Below, one piece after another: positions 21,003 to 35,618 of a stretch of DNA of 64,000 nt. Source of the DNA: Candidatus Omnitrophota bacterium (GTDB lineage: Bacteria; Omnitrophota; Gorgyraeia; Gygaellales; Profunditerraquicolaceae); the NCBI GenBank assembly GCA_035402765.1, contig DAONDX010000002.1, forward strand, positions 65,173 to 129,172, given 5' to 3'. Position numbers and translations under genes: made by a program. Every line of letters starts with the position of its first letter. Within the stretch, counting starts at the first letter, position 1. The notes beneath the pieces were generated by a model. The model had not been told where the DNA came from. It did no database searches and saw only the letters and a list, made by a program, of their open reading frames with translations.

Positions 21003-21013
21003 GGTTTTGTTAT

Positions 21014-21082: not shown

Positions 21083-21086
21083 TGAT

Positions 21087-21881
21087 CTATTTACCCTCTA
21101 GCTTCTTTACCAACGCCAGCGCAATTTTAATTAAATTGCCTTCGGCCATATAATAAAGCGGATTCATAAAACCCATTTCACCGGTAACCACATTATCACT
21201 AACGGCCAGTATTGAACAAGCCTTGATATTATAGGTCTGACAAATCGTCAAAAGCGTTGAAGAAACCATGTCCACGGCTCTGGCGCCTTCCTTGCGCTTA
21301 GCTTCCACAATTTCGCGGGTCTCCCGCAGTAAAGCATCCGTAGTCCAGGCTTTGCCCCGGTGCACCCTTAAACCCATGCCGGTGGCAATCTCAAATAAAA
21401 GATCAGAGAGATTTTTATTACTCGCCGTCTTAAAATCTTTATCCACATAATACGGAGTAACTCCGTCGCCGCGGATAATTTCATCCACGATAAATAAATC
21501 CCCGATTTTAATATCCTCATCCAATGATCCGCAGGTACCCACGCGGACAATGTTCTGAATTCCGGCATTACACATTACTTCGGTAGTAATTGATGTATCC
21601 GTAGAGAATCTTCCGCCGTTAATCCCGGTGACCTTAATCCCTTCATAAGTTCCGGTGTACATAGTATATTCCATAAAGGAAAAATTCTTCATGGGATTTT
21701 CCAGTTTTTTCATTAAAACATCCAGGCGGTCGCGCGGCCCCGGTACAATCGCATACTTGCCTACATCCTGCGGCCTAAGCTGGACCATTGCCGTTAAATC
21801 TTTCCCTGTCAAATGAACTGCTTTTTGCATTTCCATATTAACTATTCCTCTCCTTAAATGAGCGGACAACTTACGGAGCAA
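21087..21881 (-). CDS. Purine/5'-methylthioadenosine/5'-deoxyadenosine nucleoside phosphorylase (PNP/UDP family 1)
   Basis: 264 aa. DeoD-like blocks (YTGTYEGIKVTGINGG; VRVGTCGSL; phosphate-binding region). True start may be an internal Met (MEMQK/MQKAV). Confidence 0.75.
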   Translation of the reverse strand: MLRKLSAHLRRGIVNMEMQKAVHLTGKDLTAMVQLRPQDVGKYAIVPGPRDRLDVLMKKLENPMKNFSFMEYTMYTGTYEGIKVTGINGGRFSTDTSITTEVMCNAGIQNIVRVGTCGSLDEDIKIGDLFIVDEIIRGDGVTPYYVDKDFKTASNKNLSDLLFEIATGMGLRVHRGKAWTTDALLRETREIVEAKRKEGARAVDMVSSTLLTICQTYNIKACSILAVSDNVVTGEMGFMNPLYYMAEGNLIKIALALVKKLEGK

Positions 21882-22184: not shown

Positions 22185-23096
22185 TTAAAGAGCAAACAGC
22201 TTTGCTAAATTCCCCCCCAGAATATTCTCCTTCTCCTCCTGGGTCAAATCCAAATCCTTAACCGCCTTAATACCTGCGGCAATATCCTGCTTAGCCGGCC
22301 AATCGCTGCCCCACAGAATACGCCGGGGCCCCATTAAATCTAAACTTAATAAAAAGTTAGCGCGGGTGGTGTCTCCGCTGGTATCCACATAAATATTTTT
22401 AAAATAATCCGACGGCAAACCTTGCAGATCTTTGACAAAATTCATCTTGCGCAGCATCTGATAGGTCGCATCAAAGCGCTGTTTTAGATAACAGATCGCC
22501 CCGCCGAAATAGGCAAAGATAAATCTGGTCCTGGGGAACTGCCTCAACACATCCGACATTAAAAGCTTGCCGGCTGAAATCGTAGTATCAAAAATATATT
22601 CAACTACCGGGGTAAGCAGCGGGTCCTTAACCCGTTCATAACCAATCGGGTTAACAATCTGGGAGTGCACAAAAATCGGCAGGCCTTTTTCTTCCGCCAG
22701 TTTATACACCGGTAAAAACATCTTATCATCTAAATATATCCCGTTATAGCTGGAAGCCAGAGAGACCGCTTTAAAACCTAATTCTTCGGTTACGCGTTTT
22801 ATTTCATCTACCACATCAATAGAATTATCAAAAGGAAGGATCGCAGCTCCGATAAATCTTTCCGGATAAGCCTTTAAAATCTTTCCCACATTATCATTAA
22901 ACAGATGGGCCACCTGGCTGATACTGCCTAATTTTAAATGCGCATCAGAAGTCGGATAGCTTAATACCGCCCGGTCAATACCGGCCTCATCCATCATCTT
23001 AAGCTGGGCCTCAATATCCCCCCAACCCTTATGGAAAAAGTGGGCATTAGAAATTATTTCATCCGGAAGCCAGTGGGAATGTGCGTCAATTAACAT
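22185..23096 (-). CDS. Amidohydrolase-2 family metal-dependent hydrolase/decarboxylase (ACMSD-like)
   Basis: 303 aa. N-terminal MLIDAHSHW metal-binding His pair. Later HS..V and D..W motifs typical of PF04909. Confidence 0.7.
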   Translation of the reverse strand: MLIDAHSHWLPDEIISNAHFFHKGWGDIEAQLKMMDEAGIDRAVLSYPTSDAHLKLGSISQVAHLFNDNVGKILKAYPERFIGAAILPFDNSIDVVDEIKRVTEELGFKAVSLASSYNGIYLDDKMFLPVYKLAEEKGLPIFVHSQIVNPIGYERVKDPLLTPVVEYIFDTTISAGKLLMSDVLRQFPRTRFIFAYFGGAICYLKQRFDATYQMLRKMNFVKDLQGLPSDYFKNIYVDTSGDTTRANFLLSLDLMGPRRILWGSDWPAKQDIAAGIKAVKDLDLTQEEKENILGGNLAKLFAL

Positions 23097-23527
23097 TAAT
23101 GCTCCGTGCTCTTTAGTATACGCTGGGTCATCTCTTGTTCATACATCGCCTTGATCCTAAAAAATTCTTTACGGCCAAGCTCTTTGACGATGGATTTCTC
23201 AATTGCCCGCAGCTTAACATCCAGAAAAATAAACTCGGTATTTTTCCTTAAACCTTGGCACTTTAGATCCGAACAAGCCTTTTCTTTAACGGCAATATAA
23301 GCCTGAAAATCACCTACCATCTTCTCAAGCTGGGCTTTTTCATGCGGCAGATACGCGCCCATCAGCTCATTTTTAATTTCCCTTAAGATATCTTGATCAA
23401 TGTCAACTTGGGTAAACTTGCGTTCAAACTTATCAAACGCCTCTTTGGTGGTTTTGTACAGCCAGATAAGATAACGTTTCTTTAGGTTCTTAATATCCTG
23501 ATTATCCATATTTACCTCCTTGCCCAC
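23096..23527 (-). CDS. Hypothetical cytoplasmic protein
   Basis: 143 aa ORF, charged/helical. No recognisable motif. Start overlaps the stop of the upstream gene. Confidence 0.35.
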   Translation of the reverse strand: MGKEVNMDNQDIKNLKKRYLIWLYKTTKEAFDKFERKFTQVDIDQDILREIKNELMGAYLPHEKAQLEKMVGDFQAYIAVKEKACSDLKCQGLRKNTEFIFLDVKLRAIEKSIVKELGRKEFFRIKAMYEQEMTQRILKSTEH

Positions 23528-23602
23528 GGGGGCAACACCGACGCAATACCGCTTAGCGTCGGGTGATTCCGATTAGCGCCAGGCGTTAAACTACAATTGT
23601 AT

Positions 23603-24214
23603 TTATTTCTTTACCAATTCCACCGTATCAAAATAAAGGGTACCTTTGGTTCCGGGAAGCGGCTCAAATTGAAACATCCTGATCGGAAAATCCATTACTC
23701 CGTTTTGATCGGCATCCTGCGGCTGCCAATCATCACGCACGATGAATTTATCAAAACTAACCACTACTTTTTTCCAGCCGGCAAAATCGTCATCGGCGAT
23801 AAACCGCCAAATCTCACCCCCGGTATCTTTGATATCAAAAGCGATCTTAGCTTTTGAATTTGTCCCGTAGACATAAAAAGATACCGCGCTGTATTCTTCC
23901 CATTTGATATCGGAAGGCTTGACCGCCCAGTTAGCATTCTTGGCATCTAACCCGGCGCCGCGGGCAATATACATATAACCACCGCTGACCGCATCATAAT
24001 CAACCTTCAAAGCCTGTTTACCGCTATTTTTAATATCGCTGGCTCCGATCACCTGGATACTTGAACCATTGCCGGCGCCAAAATCCACGGTGCCGTCAGC
24101 GCCGCCGGAAACCACAATTTCAAAATCATCAAGCAAGACATTGCTCTCGGCTGCCCAACCGGCGCCCGAGATTAATAAAACTAAAGCTGCAGTTAAAAAT
24201 CCTGTTTTTTTCAT
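23603..24214 (-). CDS. Secreted protein of unknown function
   Basis: 203 aa. Clear signal peptide (MKKTGFLTAALVLLISGAGWA). Beta-rich composition. Confidence 0.45.
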   Translation of the reverse strand: MKKTGFLTAALVLLISGAGWAAESNVLLDDFEIVVSGGADGTVDFGAGNGSSIQVIGASDIKNSGKQALKVDYDAVSGGYMYIARGAGLDAKNANWAVKPSDIKWEEYSAVSFYVYGTNSKAKIAFDIKDTGGEIWRFIADDDFAGWKKVVVSFDKFIVRDDWQPQDADQNGVMDFPIRMFQFEPLPGTKGTLYFDTVELVKK

Positions 24215-24264: not shown

Positions 24265-25071
24265 TTATTTTCCCGGATGCTGCTGTTTATAAGGTATCAC
24301 CGGAGCAACCCAGGGCGTTTGCTGGTTAATTACCGCGATCTCTAAAGGGCAGACATTAGCCGGGACGGTTAAAGCAAAACGCACCGCGTCTTCAATGGCC
24401 TGCGTGCTCATCAAACGCGAGGTATCCGTACTGATATTCTGAAGTTTACCGGTTAAGTCCGTATCGGTAACCCCGGGTAATATCGAAGTAACTTTAATCC
24501 CGTGGTCGCGCAATTCCCAAAACAAACCCTTGGAAAATGCCCTTAAGCCTACCTTAAGCGAGCTGTAAACGATAAAGGTCCTGGGCAGCGGGTCACATAA
24601 GGTCGAACCGGAGACCATATTAATGATCGCTCCGCTTTTATTCTTGATCATATCATTAATCACCAGGCGGATCATCCGCACATAGCCCAAATAATTAGTA
24701 TGCGCTAATTTCTCGAAATCCTCGATCGGCTGATCCTGAAAAGGATATTGGCTGGATACCCCGGCATTATTGATCAGGATATCGATCTGGCCAAACTTCT
24801 CTTTGGCGCTTTTGACTAAATTTTCCAGATCTTCTAATTTTGTCACATCGCAAGCTACCGGCAAAACCTGGACTTTAAATTTTTTGGCGATCTCATCGGC
24901 AGTCTCTTTTAAAGGGCCCAGATTACGCGCCCCGATCACTAAATTAACCCCAAGACTGGCGGCGGTACAGGCCAAGGCTTTGCCAATTCCACGGCTGGCA
25001 CCGGTAACAATTGCTGTTTTTCCTTTTAATTCTAAACTCATACCTCTCCTCCTTATGTACGTACATAACAC
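24265..25071 (-). CDS. Short-chain dehydrogenase/reductase (candidate polyketide ketoreductase)
   Basis: 268 aa. TGASRGIG Rossmann motif, NNAG, catalytic YxxxK (YSSLK). First gene-distal member of the PKS operon. Confidence 0.85.
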   Translation of the reverse strand: MLCTYIRRRGMSLELKGKTAIVTGASRGIGKALACTAASLGVNLVIGARNLGPLKETADEIAKKFKVQVLPVACDVTKLEDLENLVKSAKEKFGQIDILINNAGVSSQYPFQDQPIEDFEKLAHTNYLGYVRMIRLVINDMIKNKSGAIINMVSGSTLCDPLPRTFIVYSSLKVGLRAFSKGLFWELRDHGIKVTSILPGVTDTDLTGKLQNISTDTSRLMSTQAIEDAVRFALTVPANVCPLEIAVINQQTPWVAPVIPYKQQHPGK

Positions 25072-25108: not shown

Positions 25109-26242
25109 TTAGCCCCGGGTGTATATTTTATTTCCGACTACCCGGCTAAACATTAATAAAATCAGCAGCCCCGAACCAAACACTAAAAATCCTAAACCAA
25201 AACTTTTCTGCATGATCAAACCGCCCAAGCTCACTCCTATGCCGCCGGCAATAAAACGCACGGCGCTGTTTAGGCTTGCGGCTTCATTGAGAAGCTCCGC
25301 CGGCAGATCCGTAAGCATAGTGGATAAACCCACATGATTAAAAGTCCAGCCCATGCCCCAAACAATCATCACGACAGCCAATAACCCCACCGGCAACTTG
25401 ATCAAGAGCAGAAAAACACAGACGATCATCGAAAGAATGCCTAAATTTACCACTTTTAACCGGCCCAGGGAATCTGCCAGATGGCCTCCCCAAACTTCCC
25501 CGAATATCCCGGCTAAGCTGGTCAGAGTGATCAGCATGCTGATTAAAAACTGGTTTAAATTTAATTGCGTCGAGAAATAAACTCCCAGCCATTGCTGCAC
25601 AGCATGATAAATCAAACTTATCAGGAAAATATAGCCGAAAATTTTAATGACTTTTTTATTTTTAAACGCCTCGAAATAACCCAGGCGGAAATTTCCGGCA
25701 TCCGCTTTAAAACTGGGCAAATAAAAATACATAAAAATCCAAAGTATAAATCCACAGAGCGCCGGAATGAGAAAAATCAACCTCCAGGAAATTATCCCGC
25801 TTAAAAACAGGCCCAATAAAGAAGCTATGAATGTCGAGCCAAAAAATAAACCAAGATAACGGCCGCGCTTAGCCGGCTTTAGGTGTTTGGCAATCACGAT
25901 CAAGCCCAGAGGAATAACCGAGGCTCCAAAAAATCCCATCATAAACCGGGCCGCAAAAAGCACAGAGATATTACCCGCTGCGGCTGCCAAAAGATTAGCC
26001 AGGGAAAACAAGAAGATGCAGAATAATTCAACCTTGCGGGCATCAAATAAGCGTACCAACGGACCATACAGCAGCGCCGCCAGCCCGTAAGGAAGCATAT
26101 ACAACCAGATAATTTTGCCGACCACAAATTGAGAAAGAGCAAAATCCGCGGCAATTGAAGGAACCAGCGCAGCAGAGGCTGCCACATTAAACGATAGAAC
26201 CGCTCCTTCTAAACAAAGGATAATAAAGGTAAGTGCGCTCAC
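25109..26242 (-). CDS. MFS transporter (candidate product exporter)
   Basis: 377 aa, ~12 predicted TM helices. MFS loop motif (LFDARKV). 4-bp overlap with the upstream aromatase/cyclase gene. Confidence 0.8.
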   Translation of the reverse strand: MSALTFIILCLEGAVLSFNVAASAALVPSIAADFALSQFVVGKIIWLYMLPYGLAALLYGPLVRLFDARKVELFCIFLFSLANLLAAAAGNISVLFAARFMMGFFGASVIPLGLIVIAKHLKPAKRGRYLGLFFGSTFIASLLGLFLSGIISWRLIFLIPALCGFILWIFMYFYLPSFKADAGNFRLGYFEAFKNKKVIKIFGYIFLISLIYHAVQQWLGVYFSTQLNLNQFLISMLITLTSLAGIFGEVWGGHLADSLGRLKVVNLGILSMIVCVFLLLIKLPVGLLAVVMIVWGMGWTFNHVGLSTMLTDLPAELLNEAASLNSAVRFIAGGIGVSLGGLIMQKSFGLGFLVFGSGLLILLMFSRVVGNKIYTRG

Positions 26243-26679
26243 TTAGCCGCTTCTTTTTCAATAATCGCTTTAAAGATCTTCAGGTTATGCTGCGAGCCTT
26301 CGTTAATAAAACCTTCGATCTGTTGGTCATTAAATTTGGCTTTGGCATCCATATGAAAATGCTGAATCCAAGTTAATTCAATGCCCCCGGTAACCGGCGT
26401 GTAGAGCCAAATAATCTTCATATACTCAAAAGGAAACAGCGGATCTTCACGCTGCGAATAAGTAAAAAACTTATCTTTAAACAAAAGCCTCCAGGATTGC
26501 CAGGTTTTATCATCCTCATCGGTTAGACGAAAAGTAATTTTATTCGCCTCTTTCTTGACCAGCTCGGCTTTTTTATATTCCGTGCCGAATAATTCCGTCC
26601 AGCGCGGGATATCATTGGAAATATCAAAAACTAAATCGTAAGGCGCCTTAATCACTATCGAATTACAGGTATGTCCCAT
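26239..26679 (-). CDS. Type II PKS aromatase/cyclase of the SRPBCC family (TcmN N-terminal / WhiE-ORFVI / ZhuI-like)
   Basis: Track ORF 26239-26886 trimmed to the internal start MGHTCNSIVIKAPYDLVFDISND (ATG 26679-26677), preceded by GGGGGGATTAA Shine-Dalgarno. Pattern NSIVI.AP.DLV.D..ND...W..LF.EY..AE......FRL..DED..W.SW......Y..W.Y....GG..L.W.Q.F.M is the ARO/CYC polyketide_cyc2 signature as I recall it. Confidence 0.7.
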   Translation of the reverse strand: MGHTCNSIVIKAPYDLVFDISNDIPRWTELFGTEYKKAELVKKEANKITFRLTDEDDKTWQSWRLLFKDKFFTYSQREDPLFPFEYMKIIWLYTPVTGGIELTWIQHFHMDAKAKFNDQQIEGFINEGSQHNLKIFKAIIEKEAAK

Positions 26680-26892
26680 TTTAATCCCCCCAGTATTTTG
26701 CTCTTTTAAAATTAGCTGTTTACGCGGGATGACTTGGCTTGATTCTGAGCGGGGCGTGGAGGCAAGGAGTGGGCATGGTTCCGTCACTTTTATGTCAGAG
26801 AGCGACGCCAGCCGACCCGAGCGAAGTTTTGCCACGCTGGGGTAAAACGAGCGCCCCCGCGAAGAACAAGACAAGACAGACCGCAATAATTA
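26680..26892 (-). promoter_or_regulatory. About 210-bp GC-rich structured intercistronic leader inside the PKS operon
   Basis: No conserved coding signal (the track's N-terminal extension MRSVLSCSSRGRS... is low-complexity). Several local hairpins (e.g. AGTTTTGCCacgctgGGGTAAAACg). GC content visibly above the flanking genes. Confidence 0.3.
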
Positions 26893-27693
26893 TTAATCTA
26901 AAAGAGCAACTACCCTTGCCCAAGCCGCTCCGGTATTTTTGATGCGGATAGGCATACAAAGCACCTTAAATCCAAAATCCGGCAAGCTTTCTAAATTTGC
27001 CAACCGCTCGATATGGATAAATTCTTTTTTTCTTCCGTAGAAATGCGCCGGATAAAATGTTTTAGGGTCTTTGGTCTTTAAGAATTCACTGAGCATAAAT
27101 CTGTAGGGCCGGTCAATCCCCATCGTATCTACGCCAAAGATCTTGACCCCCTGGCCTAATAAATATTCGATGGCGCAAGGGCTGACTCCGGGATAATCGG
27201 CAAAATATTTAGGGCCGCCGTATAACTTATCGGCTCCGGTCTGCAGTAATACGATATCTAAAGGTTTAAGCTGGTAATTGATCTTGGTTAAAGCTTCGCA
27301 AAGGTCCTGTTCCTTGATTACTTCATTTGGTTTTTTATGCCGCAGGTCTAATTTTACTCCGGGCTGATAACAATATTCCAGGGGTATCTCATCGGCGGTT
27401 TTAGAGGCGCGATTTTCAGATTGAGAACCGTAATGGAAGGAATAATCCAGGTGCGTACCGATGTGCACCGGAGCATGGACAATCTCCAAAGAGAGAAATT
27501 CTTCATCGGGCAGCTCTTCTTTTTTCACGATGCGGCCGCCCAATGCGTATTTAATCTTGCCCAAAAGAGTTTTGCCCATGATTACCCGGTTAAACTTTTC
27601 TACCCCGGCTTTATGGGTTACTCTTTCGATAGCCACTTTGTGTACCTCAAAAGCGGTCTCATCAATGGGTAAGCTTAAATCTACTATCTTCAC
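26893..27693 (-). CDS. Cyclase-family protein (PF04199, kynurenine-formamidase fold)
   Basis: 266 aa. Diagnostic HxGTHxDxxxH motif (VHIGTHLDYSFH). Confidence 0.7.
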   Translation of the reverse strand: MKIVDLSLPIDETAFEVHKVAIERVTHKAGVEKFNRVIMGKTLLGKIKYALGGRIVKKEELPDEEFLSLEIVHAPVHIGTHLDYSFHYGSQSENRASKTADEIPLEYCYQPGVKLDLRHKKPNEVIKEQDLCEALTKINYQLKPLDIVLLQTGADKLYGGPKYFADYPGVSPCAIEYLLGQGVKIFGVDTMGIDRPYRFMLSEFLKTKDPKTFYPAHFYGRKKEFIHIERLANLESLPDFGFKVLCMPIRIKNTGAAWARVVALLD

Positions 27694-27761: not shown

Positions 27762-27998
27762 TCATTTTGCTAATTTGCTCTCAATATTAGCGGTGATATC
27801 ATTAATTGTGGAATTTTTGGTAATCTCTTTAGGGCTCAGCTTGACCCCGAAAGATTTCTCTAAAGCAATTACCGATTCCACCATCTCCGTAGAATCTACG
27901 CCGATACTGTCGATCAGAGTAGAACCATCTTTTAATTCCTCGATCTTTACTTTTAAGAGGTTGCTTAACACTTCTTTTACTTTTGTTTTTGTATCCAT
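27762..27998 (-). CDS. Acyl carrier protein
   Basis: 78 aa, acidic. Phosphopantetheine-attachment DS motif in GVDSTEMVESVIALE. Confidence 0.8.
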   Translation of the reverse strand: MDTKTKVKEVLSNLLKVKIEELKDGSTLIDSIGVDSTEMVESVIALEKSFGVKLSPKEITKNSTINDITANIESKLAK

Positions 27999-28012: not shown

Positions 28013-28090
28013 TATTATTTACGGGTGGCTTGGGTGTTTTCGTAGCGCGTCAGCGCAAGAAAATACCCAAGACAGGACCCGTAAATTTTA
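28013..28090. repeat. Structured intergenic repeat, copy 3
   Basis: TTATTTACGGGTGGCTTGGGTGTTTTC-gtagcgcgtcagcgcaag-GAAAATACCCAAGACAGGACCCGTAAATT. Outer arm TTTACGGG/CCCGTAAA carries G>A and C>T changes that preserve pairing relative to copies 1 and 2. Confidence 0.8.
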
Positions 28091-29548
28091 TATCTGTACT
28101 TCCCCTTTAGTCGCCGCCGCTTCCCACTTATTCAATCCGTCAATAACATCTTGAATACAAAGCTTGGCCAGCGGATCAAAATCGCTTTCCATGATCCGGT
28201 TGATCCGGCCGGGCTTTGAGAAAAATTCACGCATACACCAGGAACCTAAACGGCCCAGGTCTTCGGTGGTCAAATGATCCGTAGGGATTACCGGATGCAG
28301 AAAATCCCAAGTGCTAAAATCAACTTTTTTCGGATCAATCCACCCCTTCTTTAAAGCAATCCTCCACATCGGTGAATTGGGAGCCGGAGTGACATAACCT
28401 ACCCACAGGATATCCGGGTCCACCATGTCGGTGAACTCAAAACGCTGTTTGACGATCTCTTCGGTATCGTAATCAAACCCCATCATAATATCGGCAACAA
28501 TAGCAATATCATTTTTACGCAAGATCTCGATAGTCTTCTTAATCTGCTCGATGGTTGTGCCTTTAGCGATTCTTTTGAGCTCAGATTGTGTCGTTACTTC
28601 AATTCCAAAAACTCCCATAAACAGGCCTGCCTCTTTCATCAGCGGCAGAATTGATTCACAGTTAACCCAATCCACAGCCCTGCCTAAAGCCACCCATTTC
28701 GTTTCGATCTTTTTAGCCAACTTTAATTCACAGAACTTTTTAACCCTGGCAGCATCAACAATGAAATTATCATCCTGGATTACCACTACCTTGACTTTGT
28801 ATTTATTCTGCAAAAGTTCCAGCTCCTCAATTACCCGCTCCGGGCTTTTAGCGCGCCATTTTAAAAAATCTGACGGAGAACGCGGGTCAAATTGATCCCA
28901 TTCATAACAAAAAGTACAGGCCGAAGGACAACCCCGGGAGGTAACCATATCGACAAACGGCTTCCAATAAGTATGCCCGGAATATTTATCCATGGGGAAC
29001 AAGTCATAGGCCGGTAAAGGAAGCTTATCCAAATCTGTCATCAAGGGCTTATGCGGCCCCATCACGATCTGCCCATTAATGCGCGAGGTGACTCCGCCGA
29101 CATCTTTGAGCGGTTTATTTTTATCGATCGCTTCAATTAAATCCCCAAAAGATTCCTCTTCCCCCATCACGATAAAATCAACTTCCGGAATTTCTTCTAA
29201 GGTCGGAATGGGCATGGCGGAATACCAAAGCCCGCCCAAAATGATCTTTATTTTAGGCAGCGCTTTTTTAATTCCGATCGCCGCATCTTTAAAATGACGC
29301 AAAACTCCGTATCCGCCGTAGCCGTGCAGCTGCTCACCCATCACCACAATATCAGGGTTTATATTTTTTACCTGTTGGATCAGCTGCTCCATGGGTATCT
29401 GTTCGGCTTTAGCGTCGATTACCGCTACATCTTTATAACCTTTCTCCCGGATATAAGCAGCCCAATGCGCATATAACTGATTCGGAGACCGGTGAATTCC
29501 ATGCGTGGCCCAGGCGCCGACTTTAGGCATCACAAATAGTATTTTCAT
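28088..29548 (-). CDS. Class B (cobalamin-binding) radical SAM enzyme
   Basis: 486 aa. N-terminal B12-binding Rossmann-like domain (MKILFVMPKVGAWATHG...). Radical SAM CxxxCxxC (RGCPSACTFCYE). Confidence 0.85.
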   Translation of the reverse strand: MKILFVMPKVGAWATHGIHRSPNQLYAHWAAYIREKGYKDVAVIDAKAEQIPMEQLIQQVKNINPDIVVMGEQLHGYGGYGVLRHFKDAAIGIKKALPKIKIILGGLWYSAMPIPTLEEIPEVDFIVMGEEESFGDLIEAIDKNKPLKDVGGVTSRINGQIVMGPHKPLMTDLDKLPLPAYDLFPMDKYSGHTYWKPFVDMVTSRGCPSACTFCYEWDQFDPRSPSDFLKWRAKSPERVIEELELLQNKYKVKVVVIQDDNFIVDAARVKKFCELKLAKKIETKWVALGRAVDWVNCESILPLMKEAGLFMGVFGIEVTTQSELKRIAKGTTIEQIKKTIEILRKNDIAIVADIMMGFDYDTEEIVKQRFEFTDMVDPDILWVGYVTPAPNSPMWRIALKKGWIDPKKVDFSTWDFLHPVIPTDHLTTEDLGRLGSWCMREFFSKPGRINRIMESDFDPLAKLCIQDVIDGLNKWEAAATKGEVQI

Positions 29549-29583: not shown

Positions 29584-30816
29584 TTAAGCTGCTTTTTCAA
29601 CTACGAGCACGGAATTAATTCCGCCGCGGCCGCGTGAAATAATTAAAGATTTGTTTACCTTATATTCTTTGGCCTCGCCAGCCACATAATTTAAGCTGTT
29701 TTGAGCCGGCTTTTCTAAATTTAATGTCGGAGCAACTAAACTATGTTCCATGGTTAAAAGCGCAATGATCATATCTAAGGCGCCGGAAGCGCCCAGTAAA
29801 TTCCCAAACATCGACTTTGGACAGCTGGCCGGGATTTTCTTCAAGTTTTTGCCAAAGACTAACTCCAGGGCTTTTACCTCGGAATTATCCCAAAGTTCAA
29901 CTGCCAAGCCGTCTAAACTAATGTAACCGATCTCCTCAGGCAACGCTTTAGCATCATCCAGGGCCATTTTAATTGCCCGGGCTAATTCTTTTCCGTCGCT
30001 GGCGCAATTAATCCGATCTACTCCGTCACAGGCAGTACCATAGCCGGAAATTAACCCTAAAATGTTGGCGTTACGGCTCCGGGCGCGCTGAATACTCTCC
30101 ATCACTACGATCCCGGCGCCTTCACCGATTACAAAACCGTTGCGCTCCCGGTCAAAGGGCCGATAAGCTCCGGCCGGATCATGATTATTTTTAGAAAGCG
30201 CCCCGTAAGTATTACAACACAATAAAGCATACGGAGAAACCGGCGCTTCCATCCCTCCGCCTAAGATCATATTAAGTTTATTCTTCGCTAAAACTTTTCG
30301 GGCATAACCCAGCGCCATAAGCGAACTGGCCCGGTCACTGACCACGGTCTTGCTGAAACCTTTAATCCCGTAATAAATTGAAACCTGGCCTTGGGGAGCC
30401 GCCGGGAACCAGGCGCTGGCCATATAAGGCGAAACACCTTCCCGGCCTTCCAGGTATAAATCCCTTAATTCCGTCTCAGCGTAAAGCCAGCCGCCGATAG
30501 CATTACCTAAAAAAATCCCCACCAGATTCGGATCTTCGTTCTTGATATCGATCCCGGCATCCTGCAGCGCTAACTCCGCGGCCACCAGCGCCATATGCGA
30601 AAATGCGTCAATTTTCTTAAGCAGTCTTTCGGAGATGTGGCTATACTTTTCTAAATCATCTATTTGGCCGGCAATATGAGAAGGATAAAGGCTGGCATCA
30701 AAACGCCTGATCTCTTTAATAAAAGAACGGCCGCTTTTAATGTTGGCCCAAAACTGCCGCTTACCGATTCCCGACGGGCTGACTACGCCGATACCTGTAA
30801 TTGCAATCTTTTCCAT
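29584..30816 (-). CDS. Ketosynthase-beta / chain-length-factor-like protein (KS fold, catalytic triad absent)
   Basis: Start reassigned to MEKIAITGIGVVSPSG: ATG 30816-30814 overlaps KS-alpha stop as TAATG. Thiolase/KS fold throughout. Active-site Cys position reads VVSDRASSL (no Cys, no Gln). Both His positions replaced (YISLDGLAV; MFGNLLGASG). Confidence 0.75.
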   Translation of the reverse strand: MEKIAITGIGVVSPSGIGKRQFWANIKSGRSFIKEIRRFDASLYPSHIAGQIDDLEKYSHISERLLKKIDAFSHMALVAAELALQDAGIDIKNEDPNLVGIFLGNAIGGWLYAETELRDLYLEGREGVSPYMASAWFPAAPQGQVSIYYGIKGFSKTVVSDRASSLMALGYARKVLAKNKLNMILGGGMEAPVSPYALLCCNTYGALSKNNHDPAGAYRPFDRERNGFVIGEGAGIVVMESIQRARSRNANILGLISGYGTACDGVDRINCASDGKELARAIKMALDDAKALPEEIGYISLDGLAVELWDNSEVKALELVFGKNLKKIPASCPKSMFGNLLGASGALDMIIALLTMEHSLVAPTLNLEKPAQNSLNYVAGEAKEYKVNKSLIISRGRGGINSVLVVEKAA

Positions 30817-32096
30817 TATCCACCAAACCTTTTTAAAATAAGGGAAGAGTGTATCCCTGAAAAACCGCTGCTGGTTTTTAAAATAATATCGACCTTTTTT
30901 TGAATGGCCTGATTGGGAATATAATACAGATCGCACTGGGGGTCTTTTTCCTCCTGGTTGATCGTCGGAGGAAGAATATTTTTTTCAAAAATCAGACTAG
31001 CCATCGTCAGCTCAATGGCATTGGCCGCCGCCAGAGGATGGCCGATCATGGATTTAAAAGAACTGATCGGCAGCTTATAGGCATATTGGCCAAAAATTGT
31101 TTTATAAGCGCTGGTTTCAAAAATATCATTCATTTTCGTGCTTGAGCCGTGCGCATTAATATAATCAATTTCCGATGGTTTAACCTGGGCATCTTTTAAA
31201 GCCAAACTAATGCAAATTTCCATGGCCCGGCCGTCAGAAGGCAAATCCGTCATATGAAAAGCATTGCAGCTGGTGCCAAAACCTAAAACCTCGCAGTAAA
31301 TCGGAGCATTGCGTTTTAAGGCGTGATTTAATTCTTCCAGCACCAGAAGCCCGGCCCCTTCCCCTAAAACAAAACCATCCCTTTTATTATCAAAGGGCCG
31401 GGAGGCTTTTTGCGGTTCGTCATTATGCACGGATAAAACATTGACCACATCAAAAGCCCCGAAGGTAATCGGAGTAAGCGGGGCTTCCGCAGCACCGCAA
31501 ATCATTACATCCATCTCCGCATCCTGAATGCTCTCTAAACCAAAACCTAAAGAATCGGTACCGGCGGTACATCCGGTCGAAATAGTATTACAGTTTCCTT
31601 TTAATCCATAACGGGCGCTTAACTCAATGGAAGGAGTATTAAACATCGCCGCGTCATAAAGATCCGGGCGCACCAAAGCCGGGTTAATCGGCCGCTTGCC
31701 GTCATCGGTAACCAAAGCAAATTCTTCCTCCATATATTTTGTCCCGCAGATAGCATTAGCCAAACAAACACCCACCCGCGTTACATCTTCTTTCGAAAAA
31801 TCCAGCTGACTGTCTTCTATCGCCATTTTTCCGGCGGCTACGCCAAACTGCACGTAACGGTCCATGCGCATAGCCTCTTCATGAGTTAGACCCAATTTAA
31901 AAGGATCAAAATCCCTGACCTCGGCGGCAATCTTAGTATTAAAAACCGAAACATCAAAACCATCCACTAAACGGATCCCGGATTTACCGCTGGAAAAACC
32001 TTCCCAGGCATTCTTTTTCCCGATACCGTTGGGGGAAATTACTCCCACACCGGTAATGACTACTCTACGTTTAACCACTTTTGTTATTCCTTTCAT
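30816..32096 (-). CDS. Ketosynthase-alpha (FabF/KAS II-like, intact Cys-His-His)
   Basis: 426 aa. Active-site Cys (TISTGCTAGTDSLG). His pair (YINAHGSST; KSMIGHPLAAA). N-terminal RVVITGVGVISPNG. Confidence 0.85.
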   Translation of the reverse strand: MKGITKVVKRRVVITGVGVISPNGIGKKNAWEGFSSGKSGIRLVDGFDVSVFNTKIAAEVRDFDPFKLGLTHEEAMRMDRYVQFGVAAGKMAIEDSQLDFSKEDVTRVGVCLANAICGTKYMEEEFALVTDDGKRPINPALVRPDLYDAAMFNTPSIELSARYGLKGNCNTISTGCTAGTDSLGFGLESIQDAEMDVMICGAAEAPLTPITFGAFDVVNVLSVHNDEPQKASRPFDNKRDGFVLGEGAGLLVLEELNHALKRNAPIYCEVLGFGTSCNAFHMTDLPSDGRAMEICISLALKDAQVKPSEIDYINAHGSSTKMNDIFETSAYKTIFGQYAYKLPISSFKSMIGHPLAAANAIELTMASLIFEKNILPPTINQEEKDPQCDLYYIPNQAIQKKVDIILKTSSGFSGIHSSLILKRFGG

Positions 32097-32151: not shown

Positions 32152-32745
32152 TTATGTTTGGTTCTTTCGCGTAATCTTGAAAACAATATTTCCCCCGTCC
32201 GGACAGGTAACTGTATCAATCGTATCCGGATCAGGCATAAAGAAAAATTTAGCGCCGAAATTTAAAGCAAATAAAGCCGGAAAAGCGGTATGAAATGCCG
32301 CTCCGCAAAACCCCGGGATACATTTCAACCCTTGAGTTTCCCATTTGTCCCCTACTTTATACCCAAAAGAACATTTGCCTTTTGATTGCACTACCTCCAG
32401 GATCATTTTCTTGGGGCGGGGGCCTTGATACTCCGGATCGCGCGGGATAACTTCCAGTTTGCCGTCTTTATCCAAAATTTCAACTTTAAACTCCAGTTTG
32501 CCGCCGTCAGGACAAGTAGTCAATAACGAACGCTGATTATCGCGAAACCCGAATTTGGCGCCGAAACTTAAAGCATAAATGGTGGGAAATAAAGCATGCG
32601 CCAGGCCTAAACAAAAGTGTTTTGGCGCATGTGTAAAATCCTCCAGAATAATCACATCCCCGGCTTTATACCCGTGGTAACAGACCCCCAGAACCTGGGT
32701 CACGGTAAGTTTAAGCTTCGGGAAAGGTGTTTTTACTTCATCCAT
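32152..32745 (-). CDS. Tandem-duplicated Cys-containing domain protein of unknown function
   Basis: 197 aa of two ~95-aa repeats sharing C..GYK.GD, C.G.A..FP...AL.FGAKF.F and TCPDGG.(L/I).FK(V/I) blocks. No catalytic motif I can name. Confidence 0.5.
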   Translation of the reverse strand: MDEVKTPFPKLKLTVTQVLGVCYHGYKAGDVIILEDFTHAPKHFCLGLAHALFPTIYALSFGAKFGFRDNQRSLLTTCPDGGKLEFKVEILDKDGKLEVIPRDPEYQGPRPKKMILEVVQSKGKCSFGYKVGDKWETQGLKCIPGFCGAAFHTAFPALFALNFGAKFFFMPDPDTIDTVTCPDGGNIVFKITRKNQT

Positions 32746-32746
32746 G

Positions 32747-33751
32747 TTAAACCAGCTCCTTAGTTCTGTGGATAAGATCTTCTTTGCTAAAAAATTTATG
32801 GCTAACCTCTACTTGATGCACCATCTCTACTAAAGTTTTATTCAGGGGCGCGGTAAGATTATTTTCTTCGGCCAAACGCACAAATTCTCCGTTAATATAA
32901 TCAATCTCTGAAAGTTTACCGCGCAGGATACTCTGCAATATCGAGCCATATAACGGGTCCTTGCTTAAATTTCTCATCATCCCCGAGAAAATCTCAGCGG
33001 CATGAGCGCTGGGCAGGCTGGTAAATTTAGTGAGGTTTTCGATCGGAAATCCGGGGAGAGAAACTAAATCTATCCCGATTTTATCAAATATCTCAAAAGC
33101 CTCTTTCCAAATAGCGATACTGATCCGGCTAACGGTTAAATCTCCGAAAACATCCTGTATGCTTCTGCCCAGAATTGCCGGCAGACAATTGTTAGCATTA
33201 ACAAAGATCTTTAAATATTTCATCCCCCGCATATTTTGGCTGATGATCGCCGGGAAAGCCTTATCCAAAACCAAGCTTAAATCGAGCAGCCCTTGAGTAG
33301 GGTTAGGGTTAAAAATGCTTCCCACAATCCAGCTGCCCTCGAAATTATGCACCACTATGCCGGGTTCCAAATTAGTCGCCCCGAACATGATAATACTTGA
33401 GATAATTTGCTCAACCGGTAAATATTTGGCGGCGATCTTATCTGCCTGCACACCGTTTTGCGTAGTGAGCAATAAAGAATTCTGGATTAAATGGCGGCTG
33501 GCCGATAAAGCTGAATCAATATCCTGTGTTTTAGTCGTTAAAATTACTAAATCCGGAGCGTAGTGTAATTTATCGGAGATCTCCACATGCACCGTTTGAT
33601 TCCCCCGGACTCCGGAGATGACCAGCCCCTGCCGGCTGATCACTTCAACCCCCGGACCGCGGCCGACTAAAGTTACCTCTTCGCCTTGCTTTTTAAGGTA
33701 ACCAGCAACTAAACAACCTATAGCCCCGGGGCCGATAACTGCAATACGCAT
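32747..33751 (-). CDS. ApbA/PanE-family 2-dehydropantoate-2-reductase-like NAD(P)H oxidoreductase
   Basis: 334 aa. N-terminal Rossmann MRIAVIGPGAIGCLVAGYL. ApbA_C-type C-terminal domain. Confidence 0.75.
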   Translation of the reverse strand: MRIAVIGPGAIGCLVAGYLKKQGEEVTLVGRGPGVEVISRQGLVISGVRGNQTVHVEISDKLHYAPDLVILTTKTQDIDSALSASRHLIQNSLLLTTQNGVQADKIAAKYLPVEQIISSIIMFGATNLEPGIVVHNFEGSWIVGSIFNPNPTQGLLDLSLVLDKAFPAIISQNMRGMKYLKIFVNANNCLPAILGRSIQDVFGDLTVSRISIAIWKEAFEIFDKIGIDLVSLPGFPIENLTKFTSLPSAHAAEIFSGMMRNLSKDPLYGSILQSILRGKLSEIDYINGEFVRLAEENNLTAPLNKTLVEMVHQVEVSHKFFSKEDLIHRTKELV

Positions 33752-34020
33752 TATGGTTTAACGTTTTTTGGAAAACCGTACTTTTTATAATCAAACCCGT
33801 TTTGTCCCAACAGGCGCACCATCATACTGTAAAAAGGCGAGGGCACATCGGAAAAAAAAGCCGCTACCACATCCTGGTCGCTGACTCCGGTAGAGGAGCG
33901 TTTAGCAGCAAGCTCTTCGGCTCGGCGGCGGACTACTGATTCCGTAATTCTCCGGTGGAATACCGGGATCTTGGAAATTAATACTTTAAATTTATTTTCT
34001 GTTTCCGTTTCCCAAAACAT
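33751..34020 (-). CDS. Small hypothetical protein (first ORF of the PKS operon)
   Basis: 89 aa. 1-bp overlap with the reductase gene. Faint resemblance to stand-alone PCP_red-like small domains (KIP.F.RR...E..A...G); not reliable. Confidence 0.3.
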   Translation of the reverse strand: MFWETETENKFKVLISKIPVFHRRITESVVRRRAEELAAKRSSTGVSDQDVVAAFFSDVPSPFYSMMVRLLGQNGFDYKKYGFPKNVKP

Positions 34021-34158: not shown

Positions 34159-34674
34159 TTATATTTTTTTAAGGAGCGCGCTCAAGAAAGCAGATTCTGC
34201 TTTCAGCAGGCAAAGATTATGCTCCATTATCCGCCGTAAGGGCAGGGAATTTTCCAGTTCTTTAGAATCGCACATTTTCTTTAATCCGGAGGAAATTTTG
34301 TCCAGGATTTCTGACCTTTTCTTGAGCCGGCGGCAAGCTAAAGCCGGTTGAGCAAAACCCAGGAAAAATAAACTTAAATCCAGATTGAACTGCGGGCGTT
34401 TAAAATCCAAAAGATTTTTATTGAGCAGCATCTCAAAACGCGCTTTACCCCGGGGGGTAAGACAATAAACCAGCCTCGCCGGCCGCTTGCTTTTTTTTAC
34501 TATCTGCTTGGTAAGGAAACCTTTTTTTTCTAAAATTCTTAGAGGATAATATATGGATTTTAATTGCACGCCGGCAAATAAAGAAAGGATTTCGCGTACT
34601 TTGACTTTAATTTCATAACCATGCTTAGGCCCCTGGCGCAGGAGGCCTAAAAGAATCAGTTCCTGATCAATCAT
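34159..34674 (-). CDS. PadR-family transcriptional regulator
   Basis: 171 aa. N-terminal winged HTH LILLGLLRQGPKHGYEIKVKVREI...IYYPLRILEKKGFL. 4-bp overlap with accA stop. Confidence 0.7.
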   Translation of the reverse strand: MIDQELILLGLLRQGPKHGYEIKVKVREILSLFAGVQLKSIYYPLRILEKKGFLTKQIVKKSKRPARLVYCLTPRGKARFEMLLNKNLLDFKRPQFNLDLSLFFLGFAQPALACRRLKKRSEILDKISSGLKKMCDSKELENSLPLRRIMEHNLCLLKAESAFLSALLKKI

Positions 34675-35618
34675 CCGGTAACACCCATGGCCCTAAACTT
34701 CTTATATCTTAATTTCAGCAGCGCATCTTTATCTAATGCTTCTAATTCCTTAAGATTATTTAAAATTGCCTGCTTAACACTCCCGGCGATCTTCTGCGGG
34801 TCACGATGCGCTCCCCCCAATGGTTCAGGGATGACCTCATCAATCAAACCCATCTTTAAAAGATCCGGGCCGGTGAGTTTTAAAGCCTCCGCGGCTAAAG
34901 GAGCCTTGGCGCCATCCTTCCAAAGAATGGCCGCACAACCTTCCGGAGAGATTACGGAATAATATGAATTCTCTAAAACTGCCAGCCGGTCTGCCACCCC
35001 GACCCCCAGGGCGCCCCCGGAACCGCCTTCACCGATGACAATCGCGACGATCGGCACCGCACAACTCATCATTTCCCGCAAATTAAGCGCGATGGCGTGG
35101 GATTGCCCGCGTTCTTCCGCTCCCACACCCGGATACGCCCCGGGTGTATCAATAAAAACGACCACCGGCAGATCAAATTCCTCAGCCATCTGCATTAAGC
35201 GCAAGGCTTTGCGGTACCCTTCGGGATGCGCGCAGCCAAAATTACGTTTCAAATTTTCTTTGGTGTCCCGGCCTTTTTGATGCCCGATCACCATAACTTT
35301 CTTTTTATCGATTTTACCCAAACCGCAGATCATCGCTTTATCGTCACTAAACAGCCGGTCACCGTGCAATTCCATGAAATCCGACATAATCAAACTGATA
35401 TAATCCAAGGTATAAGGCCGCAAAGGATGCCGGGCCAGCTGCACTCTCTGCCAAGCGGAAAGATTAACGTAGGTATCTTTCTTAAGATGCTCCAGCTTAT
35501 CATCCAGCTTCTTGATCTCGGAGGATAAATCGATTTTTTTCTCCGTCATAAAAGATTTAAGCTCCTGAATCTTTTTTTCTAACTCTACAATCGGTTTTTC
35601 GAAATCTAGTCCGGCCAT
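34671..35618 (-). CDS. accA: Acetyl-CoA carboxylase carboxyltransferase alpha subunit
   Basis: 315 aa. AccA signature (FIDTPGAYPG; GEGGSGGAL). Confidence 0.9.
   Translation of the reverse strand: MAGLDFEKPIVELEKKIQELKSFMTEKKIDLSSEIKKLDDKLEHLKKDTYVNLSAWQRVQLARHPLRPYTLDYISLIMSDFMELHGDRLFSDDKAMICGLGKIDKKKVMVIGHQKGRDTKENLKRNFGCAHPEGYRKALRLMQMAEEFDLPVVVFIDTPGAYPGVGAEERGQSHAIALNLREMMSCAVPIVAIVIGEGGSGGALGVGVADRLAVLENSYYSVISPEGCAAILWKDGAKAPLAAEALKLTGPDLLKMGLIDEVIPEPLGGAHRDPQKIAGSVKQAILNNLKELEALDKDALLKLRYKKFRAMGVTG

What the first reader, a model, noticed from the sequence alone, without database searches (positions are those of the whole stretch)
32152..32745. Internally duplicated ~95-aa Cys-motif protein adjacent to KS-alpha
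The protein is two tandem copies of a module sharing:
- C..GYK.GD
- C.G.A..FP...AL.FGAKF.F
- TCPDGG.(L/I).FK(V/I)

I cannot assign it to a characterised family. Its conserved Cys residues and operon position, 55 bp from KS-alpha and 1 bp from the reductase, suggest a redox or scaffolding role specific to this pathway.
Basis: seen in the sequence. Interest (0 to 1): 0.55.

Follow-up and report, generated by a model that had tools for sequence, protein, structure and literature searches.

The report
Tandem TIGR04076 domain in anaerobe PKS
The gene is real and encodes two copies of a small, three-cysteine domain (family TIGR04076) with no known function or solved structure, and it is a fixed, highly conserved part of an aromatic-polyketide gene cluster shared by hundreds of Omnitrophota species and, fused to the carrier protein, by Clostridium beijerinckii.

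Summary
Window 32152-32745 (-) encodes a 197-aa protein made of two homologous ~85-aa modules.

It does belong to a named family. NCBIfam TIGR04076 matches twice (E 9.4e-28), but that family is uncharacterised, has no Pfam model and has no solved relative.

Each module is predicted with high confidence as strand-strand-helix-strand-strand. Each carries three family-invariant cysteines.

The organism is Candidatus Omnitrophota. In 80 of 80 species-level genomes examined the gene sits in the same block: small protein, PanE/ApbA-like reductase, 2xTIGR04076, KS, CLF, B12-radical SAM, ACP, OxyN-type cyclase, TcmN-type cyclase, KR, amidohydrolase. It is as conserved as KS and CLF (median 83% identity).

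Natural fusions link the domain to:
- the reductase (Omnitrophota);
- the PKS acyl carrier protein (Clostridium beijerinckii and a Bacillota MAG);
- elsewhere, a flavin reductase domain and a DUF362-ferredoxin.

My best reading is a Cys3 metal- or thiol-based redox/adaptor subunit acting on the ACP-bound polyketide together with the reductase. This mechanism is inferred, not shown.

Novelty: a new member of a known but uncharacterised family, with a PKS link that I could not find described.

The parts
32152..32745 (-). Gene for the 197-aa tandem TIGR04076 protein (the finding).
   Evidence: ORF. TIGR04076 E 9.4e-28 with 2 stretches. 854 homologues at E<=1e-3; 221 near-full-length orthologues were aligned. 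Purifying selection. AF2 pLDDT 93.1, pTM 0.88.
32470..32724 (-). Repeat 1 (residues 8-92). Predicted strand-strand-helix-strand-strand. Invariant C22, C45, C78. Has a DFTHxP insert that is invariant within Omnitrophota.
32161..32415 (-). Repeat 2 (residues 111-195). Invariant C125, C147, C181. This is the more canonical copy: most single-domain family members align to it.
32747..33751 (-). PanE/ApbA-family NAD(P)H-dependent reductase. Its stop lies 1 bp before the TIGR04076 start. It is naturally fused to the tandem protein in some Omnitrophota.
   Evidence: Pfam ApbA and ApbA_C. TIGR00745 168 bits. The reductase-to-TIGR04076 gap is -8 to +11 nt in 62 of 67 loci. Fusions: the L050 ORF of 534 aa and P0125.
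33751..34020 (-). 89-aa protein with weak similarity to DUF2621 and PCP_red. It always heads the block.
   Evidence: Present in 70 of the 80 genome loci and absent only where the contig ends. DUF2621 hits in divergent versions.
30816..32096 (-). Ketosynthase alpha, with the active-site Cys in TGCTAG.
29584..30816 (-). KS-beta / chain-length-factor-like partner. Arg occupies the catalytic Cys/Gln position (DRASSL).
28088..29548 (-). B12-binding radical SAM enzyme, BchE/HpnJ-like.
27762..27998 (-). Acyl carrier protein, 78 aa, with the GVDSTE motif.
26893..27693 (-). PF04199 cyclase (OxyN/DpsY type).
26239..26886 (-). SRPBCC (TcmN-type) polyketide cyclase/aromatase. The true start is probably downstream of the listed TTG.
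   Evidence: Orthologues are 145-147 aa.
25109..26242 (-). MFS transporter, present in about half of the loci.
24265..25071 (-). SDR ketoreductase.
22185..24214 (-). The tail of the conserved block: CBM11-like protein (23603-24214), a 143-aa protein of unknown family (23096-23527) and an Amidohydro_2 enzyme (22185-23096).
34159..35618 (-). PadR regulator (34159-34674) and AccA carboxyltransferase (34671-35618). These are frequent upstream neighbours of the block.
   Evidence: Present in 44 and 39 of the 80 loci respectively.

Best explanation
What it is. The ORF is a real gene for a protein of two tandem TIGR04076 domains. Each domain is an ~85-aa strand-strand-helix-strand-strand unit with three invariant cysteines: one after strand 1, one at the N-terminus of the helix and one after strand 3 (in a CPD motif). 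I infer from the topology that these come together at one end of the domain. The two domains pack as a pseudo-dimer.

Where it belongs. It is a dedicated, core accessory subunit of an 'ancestral' anaerobe-type type II polyketide synthase pathway (KS, CLF, ACP, OxyN-type cyclase, TcmN-type cyclase, amidohydrolase) that is conserved across Omnitrophota.

Most likely mechanism (inferred). The Cys3 site holds a metal or Fe-S centre, or redox-active thiols. The protein acts as a redox/adaptor module that docks the ACP-tethered polyketide intermediate and works with the translationally coupled PanE/ApbA-like NAD(P)H reductase. Together they would carry out an oxygen-independent reductive or redox tailoring step.

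Shown: family membership, duplication, fold prediction, purifying selection, invariant synteny, and fusions to the reductase and to the ACP.

Inferred: the cofactor, the physical partners, and the chemical step.
For: Identity:
- TIGR04076 matches twice, 96.6 bits against a cutoff of 33.
- Three Cys plus one Gly are invariant over 72 diverse domains, and the Cys are kept in both repeats.
- AF2 gives pLDDT 93.1 and pTM 0.88 for the tandem, and pLDDT 95.2 for one domain.

Pathway link:
- 305 species-level genomes carry a relative. The best 80 are all Omnitrophota (some records are titled 'uncultured Planctomycetales', 'Patescibacteria group' or simply 'bacterium'). All 80 show the same gene order as far as the contig reaches.
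- Versions only 53-63% identical keep the order small protein (DUF2621 hit), 150-aa protein, ApbA, 2xTIGR04076, KS, CLF, while the rSAM gene moves.
- Median identity is 82.7%. That compares with KS 85.5, CLF 80.5, ACP 74, cyclase 79 and ApbA 62.

Partner links:
- ApbA and TIGR04076 are fused in one ORF in L050 and in P0125. The gap between the two genes is -8 to +11 nt in 62 of 67 loci.
- The domain is fused N-terminally to the PKS ACP, at the KS-CLF-ACP position, in a Bacillota MAG and in Clostridium beijerinckii. Both clusters also carry a second, free TIGR04076.
- A single-domain copy sits directly upstream of the cyclase in a third PKS cluster.

Redox flavour of the family:
- Fusions to a Flavin_Reduct domain (a 28-member cluster) and to DUF362 plus 4Fe-4S ferredoxin.
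- DUF362 is co-located in the clostridial clusters.
- An HdrD-like protein (CCG x2 plus 4Fe-4S) is the commonest same-strand upstream neighbour of canonical singles, in 13 of 61 loci.
- The motif of the third Cys followed by Pro, and a Cys at a helix N-terminus, are typical of metal or redox sites (my own knowledge).
Against: - No cofactor or metal is demonstrated, and model coordinates could not be inspected, so the clustering of the three Cys is inferred from topology only.
- PanE/ApbA enzymes are hydride-transfer enzymes that need no protein redox partner (established knowledge).
- The clostridial and 'Lokiarchaeota'-labelled clusters contain TIGR04076 but no ApbA, so the reductase partnership cannot be the universal role.
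- Some close relatives lie outside any PKS cluster: P0121 at 55% identity and P0160.
- The His of the family consensus C..GHKVGD is Tyr in the PKS-type domains, so the ligand set, if there is one, is unclear.
Confidence: 0.42

Rival explanations
1. Structural scaffold or chaperone. The domain has no chemistry of its own. Its cysteines hold a structural Zn or simply stabilise the fold. It docks ACP to the KS-CLF or cyclases, or shields the reactive poly-beta-keto chain.
For: - Fused directly to the ACP in two Bacillota clusters.
- Occurs as 1 to 4 tandem copies, as binding modules often do.
- No catalytic motif is recognisable and no known fold is matched.
- Conserved at the level of KS and CLF, as expected for a complex subunit.
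Against: The recurrent fusions and neighbours are redox proteins, not carrier proteins, in the non-PKS members: Flavin_Reduct, DUF362-Fer4 and an HdrD-like protein. Three invariant Cys kept in every copy over a very diverse family suggests a functional site.
Confidence: 0.22
2. Dedicated electron carrier that, with the reductase, reductively activates the neighbouring B12-radical SAM enzyme, in a flavodoxin- or ferredoxin-like role.
For: - A B12-rSAM gene lies in the block in all Omnitrophota loci long enough to show it, and also in L087 and L086.
- The family has redox-type fusion partners.
- The hosts are strict anaerobes.
Against: - The C. beijerinckii and Bacillota clusters have TIGR04076 (one copy fused to ACP) but no radical SAM gene within +/-10 kb.
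- In divergent Omnitrophota the rSAM gene moves away while ApbA-TIGR04076-KS-CLF stays together.
- ApbA enzymes are flavin-free two-electron hydride enzymes and so are poor one-electron donors (established knowledge).
Confidence: 0.15
3. Sulfur or persulfide relay protein (DsrC/TusA-like) that delivers or handles sulfur in the pathway.
For: - HdrD/DsrK-like CCG proteins are the commonest upstream neighbours of canonical singles.
- A ThiF-family E1 enzyme and a 78-aa small protein sit between CLF and ACP in one Omnitrophota variant.
- The only fold resemblance, and a weak one, is to the XdhC Moco-sulfuration chaperone family (TMq 0.53, E 1.9).
Against: All three leads are weak or confined to sub-clades. 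ThiF is absent from the window and from the 80 main loci. The Foldseek E-values are not significant.
Confidence: 0.06
4. A housekeeping protein unrelated to the polyketide pathway that merely happens to lie next to it.
For: The family is widespread in anaerobes and most members are not in PKS clusters. P0121 (55% identical, Omnitrophota) has no PKS neighbours.
Against: - 80/80 synteny.
- Retention next to KS-CLF in 53-63% identical versions.
- In-frame fusions to the cluster's reductase and, elsewhere, to the PKS ACP.
- Three independent cluster architectures across different phylum labels.
Confidence: 0.03

Closest known systems
NCBIfam TIGR04076 ('TIGR04076 family protein' / 'uncharacterized repeat protein')
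   Same: Both halves match the model, with the whole protein well above the curated cutoff. The domain size (~90 aa) is the same. The same three invariant Cys, the GD glycine and the CPD motif are present. Like other members it occurs in tandem: the family has 1-, 2-, 3- and 4-copy forms.
   Different: The PKS-associated sub-clade replaces the consensus GHKVGD His with Tyr or Phe and has FCG(A/G)A(Y/F) after the second Cys. Repeat 1 carries an Omnitrophota-invariant DFTHxP insert. The family itself has no assigned function, no Pfam model and no structure.
TIGR04076-ACP fusion proteins of clostridial type II PKS clusters (C. beijerinckii P0390, Bacillota MAG P0176)
   Same: - The N-terminal domain is 37-47% identical to the window's repeats.
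- The cluster core is the same: KS, CLF, ACP, PF04199 cyclase, SRPBCC, Amidohydro_2.
- Those clusters also hold two TIGR04076 domains in total.
   Different: - There the domain is covalently joined to the ACP, and the second copy is a separate canonical-type 96-99-aa protein.
- The clusters have no ApbA reductase, no B12-rSAM and no SDR.
- They have CMD, DUF362, DUF169, KSIII and PPTases instead.
- The third Cys motif is CAD rather than CPD.
- That this locus is the clostrubin cluster is my inference from the species name only.
Small cofactor-free accessory enzymes of aromatic PKS clusters with single/tandem forms (ABM/dimeric alpha-beta-barrel proteins such as ActVA-Orf6, TcmI)
   Same: They are ~100-aa modules that occur singly or duplicated, are encoded inside type II PKS clusters, and act on aromatic intermediates (my own knowledge).
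   Different: The secondary-structure order differs: strand-strand-helix-strand-strand here against beta-alpha-beta-beta-alpha-beta. Foldseek against the PDB, which holds many such structures, returned none. Those proteins lack conserved Cys.
XdhC/CoxI-family molybdenum-cofactor chaperones (PDB 3on5, 2we7)
   Same: They give the highest TM-scores for the single-domain model (TMq 0.53 and 0.45 over ~85 columns), and 2we7 is the top-ranked hit for the tandem model.
   Different: E-values are 1.9-5.6 for the single-domain model, and 0.16 (2we7) and 1.8 (3on5) for the tandem. Identity is 9-13% and rmsd ~5 A for the single domain. There is no Pfam XdhC_CoxI hit. This is a lead at most, not a relationship.
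Small cysteine-based redox proteins of anaerobes that pair with dedicated reductases (rubredoxin, ferredoxin, DsrC)
   Same: The size is similar and the invariant Cys are similar in kind. The domain is fused to or lies next to flavin reductase, ferredoxin and HdrD/DsrK-like proteins. Occurrence looks limited to anaerobe-type lineages.
   Different: There is no CxxC or CxxCxxC motif. The Cys spacing is C-x22-C-x32-33-C in the window (C-x21-C-x33-C in repeat 2). The fold is not matched to any of these in the PDB.

Membership tests
NCBIfam TIGR04076 | HMM score above the curated cutoff (33 bits). | tested here: met
   96.6 bits, E 9.4e-28, two stretches. The best stretch covers residues 10-92 against profile positions 3-90 of 91.
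NCBIfam TIGR04076 | ~90-aa domain with the family's invariant cysteines (three in my alignment of 72 diverse domains) plus the GD glycine. | tested here: met
   C22/C45/C78 and C125/C147/C181, with G29 and G132. These columns are invariant or at least 90% conserved.
NCBIfam TIGR04076 | Occurs singly or as tandem repeats. | tested here: met
   Representatives of ~90, ~180-230 and ~350-400 aa have 1 to 4 matched stretches. The window protein has 2.
Accessory component of type II (aromatic) PKS clusters | Conserved co-location and co-orientation with KS-alpha, CLF, ACP and cyclases. | tested here: met
   80/80 Omnitrophota loci; divergent versions; Bacillota, C. beijerinckii and one further MAG.
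Accessory component of type II (aromatic) PKS clusters | Required for product formation or interacts with PKS proteins. | not testable with these tools
   There is only Rosetta-stone evidence: fusions to ACP and to the ApbA reductase.
Fe-S or metal-binding redox proteins (ferredoxin/rubredoxin-like) | Canonical Cys ligand motif (CxxCxxC...CP or CxxC pairs), or a match to a known Fe-S family. | tested here: not met
   No Pfam Fer4, rubredoxin or other hit. The Cys spacing is C-x22-C-x32 in repeat 1. Only the CP dipeptide at the third Cys resembles such motifs.
Fe-S or metal-binding redox proteins (ferredoxin/rubredoxin-like) | Bound metal or cluster. | not testable with these tools
   Needs anaerobic purification with ICP-MS, UV-vis and EPR.
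ABM / dimeric alpha-beta-barrel polyketide enzymes (ActVA-Orf6, TcmI type) | Ferredoxin-like beta-alpha-beta-beta-alpha-beta fold. | tested here: not met
   The predicted order is strand-strand-helix-strand-strand. No such PDB hit appears, and there is no Pfam ABM hit.
XdhC/CoxI N-terminal domain | Significant sequence or structure match. | tested here: inconclusive

The most novel reading that the evidence does not exclude
TIGR04076 is a structurally new Cys3 cofactor-binding domain. It would be a previously unrecognised fourth component of the 'minimal' PKS in anaerobic, ancestral-type aromatic polyketide synthases. It is free and duplicated in Omnitrophota and fused to the ACP in the clostridial (probably clostrubin-type) synthase. 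It would perform or mediate oxygen-independent redox or cyclisation chemistry on the ACP-bound chain. On this reading, the phylum-wide conservation of the cluster means its product is a core physiological metabolite of Omnitrophota rather than an occasional antibiotic.
Probability: 0.25. Interest if true: 0.75.

Novelty: new member of a known kind. Interest (0 to 1): 0.5.

Why it matters
TIGR04076 is a widespread domain of anaerobes with no function, no Pfam entry and no structure. Here it has an unusually informative context:
- it is a fixed, strongly conserved member of a type II PKS cluster in hundreds of uncultured Omnitrophota species;
- it is fused to the cluster's reductase in some of them;
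- it is fused to the PKS acyl carrier protein in Clostridium beijerinckii, a cultivable and genetically accessible species known to make a type II polyketide.

That makes the domain's function directly testable. One could delete the N-terminal domain of the ACP fusion, reconstitute the minimal PKS with and without the protein, and check for a metal centre.

The result could show how strict anaerobes carry out tailoring steps that aerobes perform with oxygenases. It would also matter for heterologous expression of non-actinobacterial type II PKSs, where a missing accessory subunit could explain failures.

Tried and rejected
- Pfam scan of the protein and of 72 diverse family members: no family.
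- PDB sequence search with the protein and with a family profile: nothing credible. The best hit was ASH2 at E 0.048.
- Foldseek against the PDB with the tandem and the single-domain models: no hit at E<=1e-3.
- Model coordinates are not exposed, so Cys-Cys distances and the inter-domain interface could not be measured.
- A profile search of the 5.8-billion-protein set with the diverse single-domain alignment returned mostly the same Omnitrophota proteins and added little diversity.
- Two attempts to scan genomes with broad family alignments failed for lack of a conserved stretch.
- Literature searches for TIGR04076, IPR023811/CHP04076, Omnitrophota plus polyketide/type II PKS, and clostrubin/wexrubicin found no functional study of the domain and no description of it in PKS clusters. 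The catalogue of McBride et al. (PMC10132072) lists Candidatus Omnitrophica among the phyla with KS-CLF pairs and says nothing further.
- Rejected: a dimeric alpha-beta-barrel / ABM-type polyketide enzyme. The topology differs and there is no hit.
- Rejected: a chance neighbour. Synteny and fusions argue against it.
- Rejected: a spurious ORF. Codon-position pattern and 221 aligned orthologues argue against it.

Full report
**1. The observation**

Window 32152..32745 (minus strand) is an ATG-initiated ORF of 197 aa. Its N- and C-terminal halves align with a BLOSUM62 local score of 150. Shuffled controls give 25.0 +/- 4.3, with a maximum of 44. So the internal duplication is real.

Only the first part of the second motif is slightly mis-spaced: the shared pattern is FC....H..FP...AL.FGAKF.F. 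The stated distances are correct: 55 bp to the KS gene and 1 bp from the reductase gene.

The gene is under purifying selection. Over 79 orthologues the mismatch fraction at codon positions 1/2/3 is 0.16/0.07/0.52.

**2. What it is**

Pfam finds nothing. NCBIfam TIGR04076 matches twice: 96.6 bits against a cutoff of 33, E 9.4e-28. Close homologues are 77-90% identical and ~195-200 aa long. Those that carry a source name are Candidatus Omnitrophota MAG proteins. Public records already label them 'TIGR04076 family protein' or 'uncharacterized repeat protein (TIGR04076 family)'.

An exhaustive phmmer search of 1.84 billion representatives finds 274 clusters at 50% identity. They have one (~90 aa), two (~180-230 aa) or three to four (~350-400 aa) copies of the domain.

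In an alignment of 72 diverse domains, only three Cys and the Gly of the GD motif are invariant. The Asp of the CPD motif is at least 90% conserved. Both repeats of the window protein keep all of these: C22/C45/C78 and C125/C147/C181. The fourth Cys of repeat 2 (C142) is not conserved.

**3. Structure**

AlphaFold2 with a 37-sequence alignment gives pLDDT 93.1 and pTM 0.88 for the tandem. A 72-sequence alignment gives pLDDT 95.2 for repeat 2 alone. Each domain is strand-strand-helix-strand-strand.

The first Cys follows strand 1, the second sits at the helix N-terminus, and the third follows strand 3. From the alternation of the elements I infer that the three lie at the same end of the domain.

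**4. Surroundings in the window**

All genes are on the minus strand, in this order:
- AccA
- PadR
- an 89-aa protein with weak similarity to DUF2621 and PCP_red
- a PanE/ApbA-family reductase. It matches TIGR00745. The GxGxxG, K-x-x-x-N and SEID motifs of ketopantoate reductases are visible in the sequence; that comparison is from my own knowledge of the family.
- the tandem TIGR04076 protein
- KS-alpha (active-site TGCTAG)
- a CLF-like KS-beta
- a BchE/HpnJ-like B12-radical SAM enzyme
- a 78-aa ACP
- a PF04199 (OxyN/DpsY-type) cyclase
- an SRPBCC (TcmN-type) cyclase
- an MFS transporter
- an SDR ketoreductase
- a CBM11-like protein
- a 143-aa protein of unknown family
- an Amidohydro_2 enzyme

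This is an aromatic type II PKS cluster of the kind called ancestral in non-actinomycetes (PMC7693217).

**5. Conservation of the context**

A scan of one genome per GTDB species found 305 genomes with a relative. The best 80 are all Omnitrophota, although some records are titled Planctomycetales, Patescibacteria or simply 'bacterium'.

In every one of the 80 the order is the same as far as the contig reaches: small protein, ApbA, 2xTIGR04076, KS, CLF, rSAM, ACP, cyclase, SRPBCC, (MFS), SDR, (CBM11), 143-aa protein, amidohydrolase.

Median identity to the window orthologue:

| Protein | Median identity (%) |
|---|---|
| rSAM | 87.9 |
| KS | 85.5 |
| SDR | 84.2 |
| tandem TIGR04076 | 82.7 |
| CLF | 80.5 |
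| cyclase | 79 |
| ACP | 74 |
| amidohydrolase | 72 |
| ApbA reductase | 62 |

The tandem protein therefore behaves like a core component. More divergent Omnitrophota versions (53-63% identical) keep the order small protein (DUF2621 hit), 150-aa protein, ApbA, 2xTIGR04076, KS, CLF, ACP, cyclase, while the rSAM gene is relocated.

**6. Fusions and independent architectures**

The reductase stop and the TIGR04076 start are -8 to +11 nt apart in 62 of 67 loci. In L050 the two are a single 534-aa ORF. P0125 is a second such fusion.

In a Bacillota MAG (L004) and in Clostridium beijerinckii (L174) the cluster reads: KS, CLF, [TIGR04076-ACP fusion], PF04199 cyclase, SRPBCC, PPTase, CMD, DUF362, DUF169, [free TIGR04076, 96-99 aa], PPTase, Amidohydro_2, ACP, hydrolases, KSIII. 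A further fusion (P0184) comes from a metagenome.

C. beijerinckii is the species from which the type II polyketide clostrubin was described (PMC4382683, abstract as listed). That L174 is that cluster is my inference and was not verified.

A third architecture, in a MAG labelled Lokiarchaeota, has a single-domain copy directly upstream of the cyclase in a KS-CLF-ACP cluster with a B12-rSAM. One relative lies next to an NRPS-like gene, an acyl-CoA dehydrogenase and a B12-rSAM.

Not all relatives are PKS-linked. P0121 (55% identical, Omnitrophota) and P0160 have unrelated neighbours.

**7. The family at large**

Other fusions join the domain to a flavin-reductase domain (a 28-member cluster) and to DUF362 plus a 4Fe-4S ferredoxin.

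I fetched 80 loci of the canonical GHKVGD...CPDxxNPVVF sub-group from metagenomes (576 relatives found). In 61 of these a gene for the domain was called. The commonest same-strand upstream neighbour, in 13 of the 61, is a ~666-aa HdrD-like protein with two CCG domains and a 4Fe-4S dicluster.

**8. Mechanism**

Shown:
- the protein is a tandem TIGR04076;
- it is a conserved, co-transcribed-looking member of the PKS block;
- the domain can be covalently joined to the cluster's reductase and, in other lineages, to the PKS ACP.

Inferred:
- the three Cys form a metal/Fe-S or redox-thiol site;
- the protein docks the ACP-bound intermediate;
- in Omnitrophota it works with the PanE-like reductase in an oxygen-independent redox tailoring step.

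I put about 0.4 on this. The main rivals are:
- A non-catalytic scaffold or chain chaperone (0.22).
- An electron carrier for the B12-rSAM (0.15). This is weakened because the clostridial clusters have the domain but no rSAM, and because the rSAM gene moves while ApbA-TIGR04076-KS-CLF stays together.
- A sulfur relay (0.06).
- A chance neighbour (0.03).

**9. Comparison with the known, and novelty**

Membership of TIGR04076 is met on every testable criterion. The protein is not a ferredoxin, a rubredoxin, an ABM-type protein or an XdhC-family member by any test available.

I found no paper that describes TIGR04076 in polyketide clusters or assigns it a function. The Omnitrophota KS-CLF pairs have only been catalogued (PMC10132072).

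The object itself is therefore a new member of a known but uncharacterised family. Its PKS association, including the ACP fusion in a cultivable Clostridium, appears undescribed and makes the family's function testable.

Interest: 0.5.

Noticed in passing
window 16103-21881 (-): Immediately downstream of the PKS block lie five genes: a PNP_UDP_1 phosphorylase, an IF-2B/MtnA-like isomerase, a class II aldolase, an aldehyde dehydrogenase and an AMP-binding ligase. This set resembles the 5'-deoxyadenosine/MTA 'DHAP shunt' followed by acetaldehyde to acetyl-CoA conversion. The same families flank the cluster in other Omnitrophota. It could recycle the radical SAM by-product into PKS precursor, with AccA sitting upstream.
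   Followed up: partly
window 29584-30816 (-) and loci L006-L085: The CLF-like KS-beta has Arg at the position of the KS catalytic Cys / classical CLF Gln. The motif T[VI][VI][SA]DRA[SG]SL was found in 59 of the 74 CLF orthologues scanned; the search pattern did not match the other 15. So it is not a canonical decarboxylating 'KSQ', and chain initiation may work differently.
   Followed up: partly
loci L006-L085 (genome scan): The whole type II PKS block is syntenic in 80/80 species-level Omnitrophota genomes, and 305 species genomes carry a relative of the tandem protein. That is unusual for a 'secondary' metabolite cluster. It suggests the product is a core physiological molecule of this phylum.
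   Followed up: partly
L174 7460-19671 (Clostridium beijerinckii) and L004: The clostridial type II PKS clusters carry a TIGR04076-ACP fusion plus a free TIGR04076. They also carry CMD, DUF362, DUF169, two PPTases, two hydrolases and a KSIII. This is probably the clostrubin-type locus. The N-terminal domain of that ACP seems not to have been discussed in the papers I could search.
   Followed up: partly
L092 9190-10403 and L093 7013-8226: One divergent Omnitrophota variant inserts a ThiF-family E1-like enzyme and a 78-aa small protein between CLF and ACP. This hints at adenylation or sulfur-carrier chemistry in that version.
   Followed up: no
L087 (metagenome contig; an identical-cluster protein is labelled Candidatus Lokiarchaeota): This contig has a KS-CLF-ACP cluster with two methyltransferases, a B12-rSAM, an Rce1-like protease, a single TIGR04076, a cyclase and an SRPBCC protein. 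A protein of the same 90% cluster as its TIGR04076 is deposited under an archaeal (Lokiarchaeota) MAG name. Either this is an archaeal type II PKS or a mis-binned contig.
   Followed up: no
window 33751-34020 (-): The 89-aa protein heading the block weakly matches DUF2621 and the C-terminal PCP_red domain of protochlorophyllide reductase subunit B. In a divergent version it directly follows a B12-rSAM gene. The rSAM in the window is BchE-like, so the pairing may be meaningful.
   Followed up: no
window 14097-14169 and 14263-14345 (+): Two tRNA genes are among the very few features on the plus strand in a window whose ORFs are almost all on the minus strand.
   Followed up: no
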